A DNA stretch of 64,000 nucleotides from NCBI RefSeq assembly GCF_002113885.1, contig NW_018480070.1:248001-312000 (forward strand). Reading direction: 5' to 3'. Positions within the stretch are counted from its first letter, which is position 1. Every line of letters starts with the position of its first letter. Below are positions 31,301-37,300 of this stretch, in pieces. Source of the stretch: Mizuhopecten yessoensis. Lineage: Eukaryota. The position numbers were made by a program.

Positions 31301-34300
31301 ATTACATTATATCAAAAATCAAGTATATTGTGAAACGTTTGATCTTTACATTCCCGTTCTGACGTATTAAATATATTGTAACAGAATGCAGTTCATTATT
31401 TCTATAGTAGTAAGCAATGTTGATTATCACTAGCGATTAACTTGTTTATCGATAATGTAAATCTTGAGTTATGCACTTAATACAAAGAAATGAATTCTGC
31501 AATGTATGCTGATCATATATATAATAGTAGTGACTTCCTTTAACAGGTTGCCTTTCACGATGTGTTGGGCGAGCCAGACGGTACCCATAGTATCGACTGT
31601 TTGTGGACCTCCTCTCACACGTGCTTCACCTGCTCAAAGAACTGCTGCTACAAGTTTGTCAGTACTTTGTGTGGCCTCTGCATCGCTGTTGCCTGGGGTT
31701 GTGAGTTCGCCCTGATCACCTTTGAGGCAGTGTGGTGCTTTACACCAGCTCTCAAGGCCTACTCAATAATTATGGGAATTAATCAGCGGTGCTTCGGTAT
31801 TCTCATCAGCTGCTGTCTTGCTCCAATCTGTGAAACATTTGGATTATGCTTCAGTAATATTTCAATGAAAAAGATGTGAAAACAATTGACAATCGATGAG
31901 ATATCTAAACTGATCGATAAATGTTACGTTTTCATATACTTGAAGGTGAGAGGATATCTTATGAAAATGCAGTGACTTCTAGATGACTTGTCTTGATAGC
32001 TGCATGACTTCGATAAGCTGAAACATGCTTTGTGCATATCAGGAACAAATCTAGAATCGTAATCACACGGACGTTCATAACATACCGTATAATGGAATGT
32101 CTAGATGCTTAACTGTAAAAAGTGTCGGTCACCAGCAGGCTAAATTAAAATGTTAAATAATTTATATGTTGTGCTTATTTCTTTCTTTGTTTGTTTTTAA
32201 ATATGCTGTAAAATAAGCTAGGCATATTATATCAATAAGCCCCGGTCGATACAGAAGCATCTAATAAGTGAACCTATTACACTGATATAGACTCGTCTAA
32301 TAAGTATACCTAATACACTGATTCAAAACCGGCTAACAAGTATACCTATTACACTGATACCGAACCGTTTAACAAGTAATTACACCTATTACACTGATAC
32401 CGAACAGCAAACACGTTAACCTATTACAAAGATACAGAACCGGCTAACAAATTAACCTATTACCCTTATACAGAACCGGCTAACACGTAATTACACCTAT
32501 TGCACTGATACCGAACCAGCGAACAAGTTAACATATTACAAAGATACAGAACCGGCTAACAAGTTAACCTATTACCCTTATACAGAACCGGCTATCAAGT
32601 AATTACACCTATTACACTGATACCGAACCAGCTAACAAGTTAACATATTACAAAGATACAGAACCGGCTAACAAGTAAACCTATTACACTGATACCAAAC
32701 CGGCTAACATGTATACCTATTACACTGATACAGAACCGGCGAACAGGTAATTACACCTATTACACTGATACCGAACCGGCTAACACGTTAACCTAATACA
32801 CTGATGCAGAACCGGCTTCCAAGTAAACCGATTACACTGATATAGGTTTAGCTAACAAGTTTACCTATTACACTGATACAGAACCGGGTAACAAGTATAC
32901 CTATTACACTGATACAGAACCGACTAACAAGTAATTACACCTATTACACTGATACCGAACCGGCTAACACGTTAACCTAATACACTGATGCAGAACCGGC
33001 TTCCAAGTAAACCGATTACACTGATGTAGGATCGGCTAACAAGTTTACCTATTACACTGATACAGAACCGGCTAACAAGTAAACCTATTACACTGATACA
33101 GAACCGACTAAAACGTATACCTATTACACTGATACAGAACTGGCTAACACGTTAACCTTTTACACTGATACCGAATCGGCTAACACGTAAACCTTTTACA
33201 CTGATACAGAACCGACTAACAAGTATACCTATTACGCTGATACAGAACTGGCTAACACGTTAACCCATTAAACTGATACCGAACCGGCTAACAAGTAAAC
33301 CTTTTACACTGATACAGAATTGGCTAACACGTTAACCTATTACACTGATACCAAACCGGCTAAACAATTAAACCCATTACACTGATACAGAACCAACTAA
33401 AACGTTAACCTTTTACACTGATACCGAACCGGCTAACAAGTAAACCTTTTACACTGATACAGAACCGACTAACAAGTATACCTATTAGATTGATACAGAA
33501 CCGACTAACAAGTAAACCGATTAAGCTGATACTGAACTGGCTAACACGTTAACCCATTAAACTGATACCGAACCGGCTAACAAGTAAACCTTTTACACTG
33601 ATACAGAACCAACTAAAACGTATACCTATTACACTGATACAGAACTGGCTAACACGTTAACCCATTACACTGATACCGAACCGGCTAACAAGTTAACCTA
33701 TTACACTGATACAGAACCAACTAAAACGTATACCTATTACACTGATACAGAACTGGCTAACACGTTAACACTGATACCGAACTGGCTAAACAATTAAACA
33801 TATTTCATTGATACAGAACTGGCTATCAAGTATACCTATTACACTGATATAGGACCGGCTAACACGTATACCTATTACACTGATACAGAACCGGCTAACA
33901 AGTAAACCGATTACACTGATACAGAACCGACTAACAAGTTATTACACCTATTACACTGATACAGAACTGGCTAACACGTTAACACTGATACCGAACTGGC
34001 TAAACAATTAAACATATTTCATTGATACAGAACCTGCTAACATTTTAACCCATTACACTGATACAGAACCGGCTCTCAAGTATACCTATTACACTGATAT
34101 AGGACCGGCTAACAAATATATATATTACACTGATACATGATAGGTTAAACAGTACATCTGTACACTGATTACGATACATAAATACATTTAATATACATAG
34201 GAAATATGCTGACATGAGCATGTTGCCATAGTAATATCTTTCACATTTTATTAATGTCTGCTTACTGGTCTCAATAAATGTTAATTTCAATTACCTATTA

Positions 34301-37300
34301 TATTTTGGTGGTTGTATTTAATGTATTAAAATAAACAATATATTTCTACAAGATGATAACAAATCTTTGCATATACCTTTTTGTATAATAGTGAATTGTA
34401 CCATAAAGTACATATAAGCATCACATTATACTATAAAATACAAGTACCATATTGTTTTATACTATACAATGCATTTAGCACAGTGTATATTTCTATAGAA
34501 ACCTGGACCACATTGTTGTGAGTTATGCTAAGTATTTTATACTACAAAATATACACATATGTATTTTTCACAGACACAACGAGTTGGTAACAGTCAGGGG
34601 CACTAAATTCCTTTGTTTAAATATATTAATTTAGTTAATCTAGCCATGGATGGTTATACATTCGACCTGATGAACAGAGATCCTAACTCGCTCAAATTTT
34701 CTATAGAGGTTAGAGGTATGTATTATTTGTTATGATTTGGTTCAATTAAATGAATATTCCTTAAAGTGAATATTATTACATTTTCGCCAGACAAATATCG
34801 AACTTTATCACTTGATAAAAATGAGATATTTTGCTCTATAACAGATATCAAAAATGATATTTTACAGTATGAAAAAAACATTTATGGGATTCATTTATCA
34901 GAACGGCACTTTCTATTCACTTCATTCGAAATTGCAGATAAAAATAAAACGAAGGTAGACTAAGTAGTTGTTTTGGATACATCTTAGCTAGATTTATTAG
35001 ACACCAATTTACATTTTACTATGTCTTATTTATCATGTAATCAAACTTATCAAACAATAGCACAAAATGGTAGAATTTGTTTTAATAGTTAGCTCTTAAT
35101 TTTTTTGTTTGGATAGGTTGCCTTTGAAGATGTTTTGGGAGAACCAGAAGGGACACATAGTATTGACTTATCTGGCAACACAGCTATTCTTGCTTCACGT
35201 GTGGAAAGAACTAGTGCTACAAGTTCATGAGTACTTGTGTGGCATTTGTATCGCGCTTTACTGGTGGTGTGAGTTCGGCATGATCACGTTCGAGATGGTG
35301 TGGTGCTGTACACCCTCTCTCAAAGTCCACACCATCCTTCTCGGGATTTGCCAACGTTTCTTCGGATCATGTATCCGGTGCTGCCTGGCTCCTCTCTGTG
35401 AAACCATGGGATTATGTTTCAGTAATATTACTATTAATAAAAGTGAGGGGCGTTGTTTAATGAATTTAGTAATTCGATAAACTAATCAACTTACTTTGTG
35501 CTATATAGTTATTGCTGCATTTACAATAAAATATTTGTTTATATATTGATATGCTCCTTCAACTCAAAGATAACCCAACAGCAAATTGAAGTTAAAAATG
35601 GCCACCGAAGGTGACATTTAATGACCAATTATTACATGACGTACATTTGATCACAGGTTAACTTACATAACCTAGATTACAAAGTGTACATCAATACACA
35701 CTGTTTTTCTAATTATCTAATTATGACCTTTAGCCATAGTGGGGTTGTAAAAATCCGCCCAAAATGAAGAAATATATATTTATATATGTTGTTAATTTGT
35801 TTTCCTTGTATACTTACATGAACATATGTTTGTCAACACATACACTCTCTCACTGGGTAATATTTGGAATTCAAATAATATTAAATGAAAACAAAGTTGT
35901 CTGCAAAAATCGGACACCAAATCTCGAAACTTTTTTTTCATAATTCGAGACGTTGCATAAATTGTTCAGGTTGCTGCTGTATTGACCATCAATGGATTAC
36001 GCATAATGTGCCTATGTTGTGAGGACAATGATAGTACACGATTCCATAAAAAAACAACCGGATATTATATGTTTTTAGGCTTAAAATACTGAAGTTAATA
36101 TATGAAACAATAGATTTGGATAATAATAAATACCAATACTTTCTTCCTTTTTTTGTTATTTTGAAAATGTATAGTGTATGTTTTTCAAGACATGCTTATT
36201 TCATCAACAAAGACGGTTTTGCCTAAATCAAGTGACAAGTAGGTAGCTAACGACGGTATTCCACCTAGAAATATTATGAACAGAGGTAATTATTTTTTCA
36301 ATGCCTTCGCTAGGAGTCAAAGGCAGGACCTCTGGATTAGTGGTCGCACACTCAACCGAATGCGCCAAAGATAATTTCTTCCTAGCCATGTCGTTAAGAA
36401 GCGGATAATATTTTACCACGGTGACAATTAAAATGATCGGATTGCCAGGTTCAGATGGGATCAATTAATAGACATTTCTGTCATTTTATTTACGATAATC
36501 GATGTTAACCTAGATGCTATCTAAATATTTTTCAACCATTTGTTTATTATCTTATTTAAAAACAAACATTTTCCCTTCATCTATTTACCATCTTCATTAG
36601 TATTGTAATTACGTATTGCACGTGATTAAGGGGAGAAGAAAACGAAAAAAGACATGATATTCGATATGTCAGTCAGGTGGGTAAGTGTACACATGTCTTC
36701 CTGAGTAACACATAAATGATTTGGCGATACAAATATGTCCAATTGTAAAGGGAAATTAACAAAATAGGTAAGGTTAATTGAATTAGAACAATACTGTTAT
36801 ATCTAGACAGAATATTGTTATATATAATTGGAAAAGGATAAAATACATCAGCATGACTAAAGGAGGTACAGTTGAGAAGTCCGATAACTCCAAACATCGG
36901 TATAGTGTAAGACAAACCGTCCGTGTCCCGAGAAAAAACAGTACCTCTTATAGGTATACAAAACACGTCAAGAGTTGTGGAGGGATTATTTTATTCAGTG
37001 AATGCAATATATAAAAACCTTGTTAAAAATTCTACAAATTAGATAAAAAGGCTCTTGTGTTAAAAAACCCACAAAAAAAACTTGATTGATAACAGAGCGC
37101 TTCTACAAAGAAATTATACTGATATCTTAAGCAATTTGCAGTAAAGTGAATTCTCCATGATTTTATAAATTGATGAGCAAGTAAGGGCGATATACAGCTG
37201 ATGAGGCAAGTTATCTTTTTGGAAATAAATGCGTTTCGTTTGTCATATATGTTGGCACTGGGATGACTAATATTCCCATATTATAGGTGAATAGCATGAT

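What the first reader, a model, noticed from the sequence alone, without database searches (positions are those of the whole stretch)
33900..37150. The pseudogene C locus is a circular permutation of the E-to-G interval
Seen: C's upstream DNA (~34000-34620), exon-1 context and first ~370 bp of intron align with the right part of the E-F/G spacer and the F/G intron (46770-48420). C's 3' UTR and flank (35447-37110) align with the left part of that spacer, which is E's 3' flank (44870-45911). So C has the same G-5'/E-3' architecture as F, but is much more diverged and lies outside the E-G interval, upstream of D. Inference: either intrachromatid recombination between E and G exon 2 excised a circle that reopened in the spacer and reinserted ~10 kb away, or a C-type circle integrated via exon 2 into an ancestral gene and split it into E and G. 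Serial tandem duplication with deletions is the conventional alternative.
Basis: partly seen in the sequence, partly recalled or inferred. Interest (0 to 1): 0.65.

Follow-up and report, generated by a model that had tools for sequence, protein, structure and literature searches.

The report
Old hybrid caveolin pseudogene in scallop
A decayed caveolin gene copy in a scallop gene cluster has the front half of one neighbour and the tail of another, which is what ordinary recombination inside a shared exon produces, so no DNA circle is needed to explain it.

Summary
The window holds eight two-exon caveolin genes (A-H, + strand), apparently from Mizuhopecten yessoensis; it is not human. C is a pseudogene.

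"Circular permutation" is a frame-of-reference effect. E-F-G is a 4475-bp tandem repeat, and C (34054-37110) is co-linear, in 7 of 7 blocks, with the contiguous stretch 46756-50389 that spans F.

What remains is that C, like F, has a G-type 5' half and an E-type 3' half. C is old (K2P 0.19-0.34 against about 0.0002 for F) and lies upstream of D.

Exon 2 is an exchange hotspot here:
- F's crossover maps to 49141-49220.
- E/G and B/D share near-identical exon 2 between unalignable introns and flanks.

So exon-2 exchange explains the architecture. How C reached its position is unresolved.

The one circle-specific prediction was not met. C's two ends do not meet in the spacer: 807 bp lie between them, and 334-364 bp of that is unexplained.

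Sister-species synteny could not be checked. This is an ordinary kind of gene-family evolution with one open question. Interest is low to moderate.

The parts
32248..34137 (+). 36-bp satellite, 52 copies, at the 5' edge of the C unit. Its last ~84 bp are part of the co-linear match to 46756-46878.
   Evidence: TRF: period 36, 52.2 copies, 78% matches
34054..34626 (+). C upstream DNA (X-type), two blocks: 34054-34516 matches 46756-47262; 34538-34626 matches 47688-47773.
   Evidence: K2P 0.28 for 34138-34516
34646..34715 (+). C exon 1 remnant (MDGYTFDLMNRDPNSLKFSIE) with a 7-bp duplication at the donor. It shares the start context and the donor/intron start with F/G exon 1.
34716..35116 (+). C intron. 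The first 363 bp are homologous to the first ~360-375 bp of the F/G intron (K2P 0.31-0.34). F/G carry 567 further bp (48403-48969) with no counterpart in C.
35117..35446 (+). C exon 2, disabled: 1-bp deletions after 35168 and 35234, TAG at 35212-35214, stop lost. 90% nucleotide identity to E/F/G exon 2.
35447..37110 (+). C 3' UTR and flank (Y-type), matching E's and F's 3' flank in three co-linear blocks. It includes a C-specific 514-bp stretch, 36438-36951 (an insertion in C or a deletion in E/F).
43903..44869 (+). Gene E: own exon 1 (43903-43971), own intron, exon 2 (44537-44869). The 5' half is unrelated to X. High identity to G starts 42 bp before exon 2.
44870..45914 (+). Y: E's 3' flank, the left part of the spacer, repeated at 49345-50389 after F.
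45915..46721 (+). Spacer segment absent from C. It holds a SINE-like repeat (45915-~46170; reverse copy at 40218-40417), 30 bp, a palindromic MITE-like element (46201-46387; a similar one at 37566-37685), and 334 bp of unique DNA.
   Evidence: the SINE and MITE labels are my reading of the sequence. Rfam and ARAGORN found nothing.
46722..47974 (+). X: satellite remnant (46722-46878, about 4 units) plus F's upstream DNA, repeated at 51197-52449 before G.
47975..49344 (+). Gene F: exon 1 47975-48040, exon 2 49012-49344. It is a hybrid, G-like up to 49140 and E-like from 49221.
44495..53832 (+). Tandem repeat of period 4475 bp (2.09 units). Between 44666 and 49220 the two copies differ by 1 substitution and 3 indels in 4555 bp.
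52450..53832 (+). Gene G: exon 1 52450-52515, exon 2 53500-53832. Its last 22 coding bases and its 3' flank are unrelated to Y.
29995..31879 (+). Gene B (exon 1 29995-30063, exon 2 31547-31879). Its exon 2 is 95.5% identical to D's.
38329..39242 (+). Gene D (exon 1 38329-38385, exon 2 38910-39242), between C and E. Its exon 2 gives 100% of residues 19-129 of the public protein P0013.

Best explanation
C is a dead paralogue in a tandem caveolin cluster, and its sequence is co-linear with one F-type repeat unit: satellite, X, exon 1, intron, exon 2, Y. Shown: the 'circular permutation' follows from measuring C against the E-to-G frame of a tandem array. Shown: exon 2 is the only block shared by neighbouring genes, and homologous exchange happens there. 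Inferred: C's G-5'/E-3' make-up arose as F's did, by an unequal crossover (or conversion-type exchange) in exon 2 between an E-type gene (own 5' half, Y tail) and a G-type gene (X 5' half, own tail). This exchange would have happened long ago, since K2P is about 0.2-0.3 in non-coding DNA. Inferred, weakest step: a linear copy of about 3 kb of that old F-type unit, running from the satellite to the end of Y, was then placed about 10 kb upstream between B and D. The mechanism would be an ordinary dispersed duplication, by template switching or end-joining insertion. The copy kept a constrained or converted exon 2 for a while (K2P 0.10) and then decayed.
For: Co-linearity: 7 of 7 blocks of C map in increasing order onto 46756-50389.
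Exchange in exon 2 is seen directly three times. (1) F differs from E only at 13 sites in 44506-44665 and from G only from 49221 on. That brackets a crossover in 49141-49220, with 1 substitution and 3 indels across the remaining 4555 bp. (2) E and G have 8 differences in the first 311 bases of exon 2 but 7 in the last 22, mostly synonymous. Their exon 1 regions are about 43% identical and their introns and flanks cannot be aligned. (3) B and D exon 2 are 95.5% identical (dS 0.146), against dS above 1.5 to E/F/G. Outside exon 2 their only match is a 70-bp exon-1 hit at 73%.
The exon-2 tree gives (C,(E,F,G)) with 96/95 support.
C lacks the 807-bp middle of the spacer. A linear spacer-to-spacer copy explains this directly; a whole-period circle does not.
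F is a real separate copy. It lacks 14 bp that both G and C keep.
Against: Unequal crossing-over places the hybrid between its parents, and C is not there. The relocation step has no direct evidence, and no junction signature such as a target-site duplication or an empty site was available to examine.
I could not build a scenario using only conventional unequal exchanges that yields C-D-E-G in fewer than three events. Integration of a C-type unit into a W-gene-Z ancestor would need only one or two.
Only three of the four flank combinations exist (X,Y; W,Y; X,Z). C could therefore carry the ancestral arrangement rather than a recombinant one.
X and the intron look slightly more diverged (K2P 0.28-0.34) than Y (0.19-0.24). 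This is weak evidence against a single event dating both halves.
The genome-wide copy number of the X and Y blocks is unknown. Within the window they occur only at C and in the E-F-G repeat.
Confidence: 0.45

Rival explanations
1. X-gene-Y, as in C, is the ancestral gene structure. Under this reading E and G were made from an older gene, with E's 5' half and G's tail, when a copy of a C-type unit entered its exon 2 by homologous exchange. The route could be a circle, repair copying across a tandem C-C template, or replication template switching.
For: One event reproduces the whole E-Y-X-G layout, including the Y-to-X join. Only three of the four flank combinations exist, and C is the one from which both others differ by a single change. 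E's exon 1 and G's last 22 coding bases each look like an old, separate lineage. The public protein P0001 equals E exon 1 plus G exon 2 at 100% each. That is what a gene with E's 5' half and G's tail would encode.
Against: The 30 + 334 bp of unique DNA between Y and the satellite has no counterpart next to C, so the Y-X join is not simply C's two ends brought together. Exchange would need exon 2 of the old gene to be already near-identical to C's. A polymorphic ancestral allele is also implausible given C's age (K2P 0.2-0.3).
Confidence: 0.27
2. One reading: recombination between E and G exon 2 on one chromatid released a circle of one period (about 4.5 kb). The circle opened in the spacer and was reinserted between B and D.
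For: It accounts for both the hybrid architecture and the displaced position in two steps. Both of C's ends fall in the spacer part of the period. Circle-mediated duplications with reversed block order are documented in cattle KIT, tilapia vasa and human segmental duplications (passage of PMC3420103; abstract of PMC7450558).
Against: C's ends map 807 bp apart (45914 and 46722), and at least 334-364 bp of that is not repeat-like and is missing from C. Reversed order is not diagnostic here, because a co-linear linear donor (an F-type unit) is known to form. There is no junction evidence and no physical evidence for a circle.
Confidence: 0.12
3. C, E and G are survivors of a longer ancestral tandem array of X-gene-Y units interleaved with other caveolin genes. 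The array would have been trimmed by deletions between exon 2 copies, which replaced E's 5' half and G's tail.
For: Exon-2 exchange is frequent in this cluster, so fusion deletions are plausible. The cluster has eight genes and is clearly dynamic. C/E/F/G form a clade with no orthologue among the other scallop proteins returned, which suggests lineage-specific expansion.
Against: It needs at least four events. No remnant of X or Y lies beside C's outer flanks, upstream of E or downstream of G. B and D, which would be expected to be co-duplicated, share no non-coding homology.
Confidence: 0.13
4. The F copy, and so the 'array', is an assembly artefact: two haplotypes or a collapsed or expanded repeat. 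Only E and G would then exist. C's relation to them would be unchanged.
For: The two units differ by only 1 substitution and 3 indels in 4555 bp. Two of the indels lie in a T-run and a TA-run. The public model P0001 joins E exon 1 to G exon 2.
Against: F has a clean hybrid exon 2 with one switch point. It also has a private 14-bp deletion relative to both G and C.
Confidence: 0.1

Closest known systems
Hybrid genes made by unequal crossing-over in tandem families (anti-Lepore-type duplication products; recalled textbook cases: globin Lepore/anti-Lepore, red-green opsin array)
   Same: The 5' half comes from the downstream parent and the 3' half from the upstream parent, with the switch inside a block of high identity. 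F fits fully (crossover window 49141-49220). C fits in architecture.
   Different: C does not lie between its putative parents. It is old and dead. The shared block is one 333-bp exon rather than whole genes.
Circle-mediated duplication or translocation: cattle KIT colour-sidedness (Durkin et al. 2012, seen only as a citation and a passage in PMC3420103, and in the abstract of PMC12235870); human segmental duplications with A-B/C-D to B-A/D-C order (Chicote et al. 2020, PMC7450558, abstract only)
   Same: Block order in the copy is reversed relative to a reference interval, and the copy sits at a distance from the donor.
   Different: In those cases the donor is a contiguous single-copy segment, so the reversal itself is the signature. 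Here the donor region is a tandem array that contains a co-linear unit, so the reversal carries no information. C's ends do not meet in the donor (807 bp apart).
Exon-limited ectopic gene conversion in tandem gene clusters
   Same: The E/G and B/D exon 2 pairs are 95.5% identical. The identity ends sharply for both pairs, 42 bp into the intron and 22 bp before the stop for E/G, while exon 1 and non-coding DNA are old.
   Different: Conversion alone does not move flanking DNA. C also shares 0.5-1.7 kb of non-coding DNA on each side with different neighbours.

Membership tests
Caveolin (Pfam PF01146) | Match to the family profile above the curated cut-off | tested here: met
   Exon 2 translations of E, D, H and A (4 of 4 sent) score 106.6-112 bits against a cut-off of 25. 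All 106 relatives returned carry PF01146. B, F and G were not scanned but are 95-99% identical to D or E. C was not scanned; it is 90% identical in DNA to E/F/G exon 2.
Caveolin (Pfam PF01146) | Intact reading frame (functional member) | tested here: not met
   For C: two 1-bp deletions, an in-frame TAG, the stop lost, and a 7-bp duplication at the exon-1 donor. The other seven genes have open exons with AG/GT borders.
Unequal-crossover (NAHR) hybrid gene | 5' half from the downstream parent and 3' half from the upstream parent | tested here: met
   C and F both carry G-type X, exon 1 and intron, and E-type last codons and Y.
Unequal-crossover (NAHR) hybrid gene | Single switch point inside a high-identity block | tested here: inconclusive
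   Met for F (49141-49220). For C the switch can only be bracketed between intron base 363 and the last 22 coding bases, because E and G are homogenised there. At the 15 exon-2 sites where E and G differ, C shows a mosaic of states.
Unequal-crossover (NAHR) hybrid gene | The hybrid lies between the two parents in the array | tested here: not met
   F lies between E and G. C lies upstream of D, 9.4 kb before E exon 2.
Circle-mediated duplication | Block order reversed relative to a donor that has no co-linear counterpart | tested here: not met
   A co-linear counterpart exists: 46756-50389 around F, 7 of 7 blocks in order.
Circle-mediated duplication | Both ends of the copy map to one point of the donor period | tested here: not met
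   The ends map to 45914 and 46722. No homology was found between the intervening unique DNA and C's outer flanks (Smith-Waterman 13-16 against shuffle means of 12.4-14.1). One end is blurred by the satellite.
Circle-mediated duplication | A physical circle, or polymorphic excision or insertion alleles | not testable with these tools
   This needs Circle-seq, inverse PCR or population data.

The most novel reading that the evidence does not exclude
C and the E-Y-X-G layout are the two ends of one circle-mediated event. Either a one-period DNA circle born from exon-2 recombination was reinserted 10 kb away, or a C-type circle integrated by homologous recombination into an ancestral gene with E's 5' half and G's tail and split it in two. 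This would be a natural invertebrate example of extrachromosomal circles seeding gene-family growth, with donor, product and a fresh repeat of the first step (F) all visible in one 20-kb stretch.
Probability: 0.13. Interest if true: 0.6.

Novelty: new member of a known kind. Interest (0 to 1): 0.28.

Why it matters
The locus is a compact, readable example of how a short conserved exon can act as the recombination handle of a tandem gene family. It shows a very young crossover product (F), two exon-limited conversion pairs (E/G and B/D) and an old hybrid copy (C) within 25 kb. It also carries a caution: in a tandem array, reversed block order is not evidence for a circular intermediate. If sister-species data showed that C is ancestral, or that its ends meet exactly, the circle reading would become testable. 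As it stands, nothing here needs a new mechanism.

Tried and rejected
1. Homology of E's 5' region to X, and of G's 3' flank to Y, with sensitive BLASTN (word 7, +1/-1): none found, apart from an inverted interspersed repeat and 31 bp at the acceptor.
2. A two-gene block duplication [B-C] to [D-E]: rejected. B and D share only exon 2 and a weak 70-bp exon-1 match, and the A-B and D-E intervals share nothing relevant.
3. Continuation of homology beyond C's ends into the spacer gap: none found. About 40 bp after the SINE-like element look faintly similar by eye, but this is not significant.
4. tRNA and Rfam scans of 30000-56000, to label the SINE-like element: 0 hits each.
5. Open reading frames in the spacer 44870-47974: none longer than 107 aa and none obviously transposon-like. 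They were not scanned against Pfam.
7. Polarising C's exon-2 states at the sites where E and G differ: mosaic, uninformative.
8. Literature: the search on caveolin + scallop + tandem duplication listed 10 of 366 papers, and by title or abstract none of the 10 describes this cluster. The search on circular intermediates listed the cattle and human cases.
Searches and the tree used exon 2 alone.
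Full report
WHAT THE WINDOW IS. The window has no N and about 33% G+C. It carries eight two-exon genes on the + strand. Their second exon (109-110 codons) matches Pfam Caveolin PF01146 at 106.6-112 bits against a cut-off of 25, in 4 of 4 exons scanned (A, D, E, H).

Exon 1 and exon 2 coding coordinates:
- A: 22216-22287 / 22886-23218
- B: 29995-30063 / 31547-31879
- C: 34646-34708 / 35117-about 35446
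- D: 38329-38385 / 38910-39242
- E: 43903-43971 / 44537-44869
- F: 47975-48040 / 49012-49344
- G: 52450-52515 / 53500-53832
- H: 57933-58001 / 59665-59994

A search with E's exon 2 alone returned 106 caveolins. The best is a protein that NCBI names Caveolin-1 of Mizuhopecten yessoensis (P0001). D's exon 2 gives 100% of residues 19-129 of another M. yessoensis protein, P0013. I therefore take the window to be Yesso scallop DNA; it is not human. All protein searches and the tree used exon 2 alone.

Two further small blocks appear at higher sensitivity.
- C's upstream DNA, exon 1 context and first 363 intron bases match the DNA before and inside F and G.
- C's last codons, 3' UTR and flank match the DNA after E and after F.
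- E's own 5' region (39275-44536) has no similarity to the F/G upstream DNA (X). G's 3' flank has none to E's flank (Y).
- E's exon 1 region is only about 43% identical to G's. C and G share the start context and the donor/intron start.

C is a pseudogene. It has two 1-bp deletions, an in-frame TAG and a lost stop in exon 2, and a 7-bp duplication at the exon-1 donor.

WHY 'CIRCULAR PERMUTATION' IS A FRAME EFFECT. The stretch 44495-49344 equals 48970-53832 at 99.2% over 4865 columns. E exon 2 through G exon 2 is therefore 2.09 units of a 4475-bp tandem repeat. In such an array, any window is a circular permutation of a window that starts elsewhere. Read against F instead of against the E-to-G interval, C is plainly co-linear. 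The blocks 34054-34516, 34538-34626, 34659-35078, 35105-35506, 35511-35550, 35773-36437 and 36952-37110 map onto 46756-47262, 47688-47773, 47991-48402, 49000-49405, 49543-49587, 49577-50241 and 50238-50389. That is 7 of 7 blocks in increasing order. The substantive content of the finding is therefore not the permutation. It is that an old copy outside the E-G interval has the same hybrid make-up as F.

EXON 2 IS A RECOMBINATION HANDLE. Three independent observations support this.
1. F is a recent hybrid. Column by column, E and F differ at 13 sites between 44506 and 44665. Across the next 4555 bp there is 1 substitution and 3 indels. F and G differ only from 49221 onward. F is thus G-like up to 49140 and E-like from 49221, which is one crossover inside an 80-bp window of exon 2. 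F lacks 14 bp that both G and C keep, so it is a separate copy with its own mutation, not a verbatim repeat.
2. E and G are old paralogues with a converted exon 2. There are 8 differences in the first 311 coding bases and 7, mostly synonymous, in the last 22. Identity starts abruptly 42 bp before the exon. Exon 1, intron and flanks cannot be aligned.
3. B and D exon 2 are 95.5% identical (dN 0.023, dS 0.146). Each has dS above 1.5 to E, F and G. Outside exon 2 their only match is 70 bp of exon 1 at 73%.

AGE OF C. K2P distances of C to the F unit:
- upstream X: 0.28
- intron: 0.31-0.34
- Y blocks: 0.24 and 0.19
- exon 2: 0.10

The F duplication shows 1 substitution in 4555 bp. An exon-2 tree places C as sister to E/F/G (96/95). 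No orthologue of this clade was found among the Argopecten, Pecten and Ylistrum proteins included. That tree had 21 rows: 8 from the window and 13 named proteins. A fourteenth, P0015, was dropped because my motif did not find its exon-2 start. Exon 2 is much less diverged than the flanks, which means C was constrained or converted for part of its history.

JUNCTION MAPPING. Y homology ends at 37110 in C and at 45914 in the spacer. X homology starts in the 36-bp satellite, which has 52 copies at 32248-34137 before C and about 4 units at 46722-46878 before F.

The 807 bp in between (45915-46721) consist of:
- a SINE-like element, with a reverse copy at 40218-40417;
- 30 bp of unique DNA;
- a palindromic MITE-like element, with a similar one at 37566-37685;
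- 334 bp of unique DNA.

These SINE and MITE labels are my reading of the sequence. ARAGORN and Rfam found nothing. The unique DNA has no counterpart next to C on either side: Smith-Waterman scores are 13-16 against shuffle means of 12.4-14.1, while a positive control scores 90. So C covers the period minus its middle, and its two ends do not meet. That is what a linear spacer-to-spacer copy of an F-type unit would look like. A whole-period circle would need extra loss of sequence, or the 334 bp would have to be a later insertion.

HISTORY: SETTLED AND OPEN. Three flank combinations exist: C (X,Y), E (own 5' half, Y) and G (X, own tail). At least one homologous exchange in exon 2 and one dispersal step are needed under every scenario I could construct.

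My preferred reading (0.45) has three steps. E-type and G-type genes were old neighbours. An unequal crossover in exon 2 made an F-type unit, as happened again recently. A linear copy of that unit was then placed between B and D and decayed.

The main rival (0.27) reverses the direction. C-type is ancestral, and a unit entered exon 2 of a gene with E's 5' half and G's tail. The public protein P0001 is exactly E exon 1 plus G exon 2, which is what such a gene would encode. It may equally be a gene model that skips E exon 2 and F. Its exon 2 is G-like even at the two 5' residues where E differs, so it is not the usual E-by-G deletion product.

A two-gene block duplication [B-C] to [D-E] is rejected. 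Separately, F itself could be an assembly artefact (0.1). This would not change C's relation to E and G.

COMPARISON WITH KNOWN SYSTEMS. F is a textbook anti-Lepore-type product (name recalled from memory). C meets the architecture criterion of that class but not the position criterion.

Circle-mediated duplications are documented. The cattle KIT and tilapia vasa cases are described in a passage of PMC3420103. Human segmental duplications with A-B/C-D to B-A/D-C order are described in the abstract of PMC7450558. In those cases the donor is a contiguous single-copy segment, so reversed order is the signature. Here the donor is a tandem array, so it is not.

A search on caveolin + scallop + tandem duplication listed 10 of 366 papers. 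By title or abstract, none of the 10 describes this cluster.

WHAT STAYED UNCHECKED.
- Synteny in sister species was not checked.
- The public gene structure behind P0001 was not seen.
- Genome-wide copy number of X and Y is unknown.
- There is no read-level support for F.
- Supplements of the papers were not seen.

VERDICT. The circle interpretation is not needed, and its one specific prediction is not met, though it is not excluded. C is a new member of a known kind, a hybrid paralogue produced by exon-mediated exchange, with one open question about how it was displaced. Interest 0.28.

Noticed in passing
window 31547-31879 and 38910-39242 (B and D exon 2); 29995-30063 and 38329-38385 (exon 1): B and D exon 2 are 95.5% identical (dS 0.146). 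Their exon 1 matches only weakly (73% over 70 bp) and their introns and flanks do not align, which points to gene conversion limited to exon 2. B's exon 1 resembles the N-terminus of Argopecten irradians P0010, while D's does not, so D may be the recipient.
   Followed up: partly
window 43903-43971 and 53500-53829: The public M. yessoensis protein P0001 (133 aa) equals E exon 1 plus G exon 2 at 100% each, skipping E exon 2 and all of F. It is either a gene model with a 9.5-kb intron or an allele or assembly with a single gene there.
   Followed up: partly
window 44666-49220 vs 49141-53708: The two 4475-bp units differ by 1 substitution (47831/52306), a 14-bp deletion private to F (after 48176), and 1-bp and 2-bp indels in a T-run and a TA-run. 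The duplication is very young, copy-number polymorphic, or partly an assembly product.
   Followed up: partly
window 2-1317, 1661-2016, 17035-20113, 24427-25192, 32248-34137: Five satellite arrays with periods of 35, 23, 35, 18 and 36 bp lie in 64 kb. The 3-kb array at 17-20 kb is richer in G+C (0.38-0.44) with positive GC skew. The 36-bp satellite recurs as a 4-unit remnant before F and before G.
   Followed up: partly
window 45915-46170 (and 50390-50645); 40218-40417 on the - strand: An interspersed repeat about 250 bp long has a tRNA-like GGTTCGA box and an A-rich tail, so it looks like a SINE. It begins exactly where homology between C's flank and E's flank ends. ARAGORN and Rfam do not recognise it.
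   Followed up: partly
window 46201-46387 and 37566-37685: A palindromic element (25-nt arms, 76% complementary) lies in the spacer, with a 70% similar piece downstream of C in the opposite orientation. It is probably a MITE family.
   Followed up: no
window 36438-36951: A 514-bp stretch inside C's 3' flank is absent from the E and F flanks and has no other copy in the window. It is either an insertion in C or a deletion in the E/F lineage.
   Followed up: no
window 48403-48969 and 47263-47687: F and G carry 567 bp in the 3' part of the intron and about 425 bp upstream of exon 1 that C lacks. There are no other copies in the window, and polarity is unknown.
   Followed up: no
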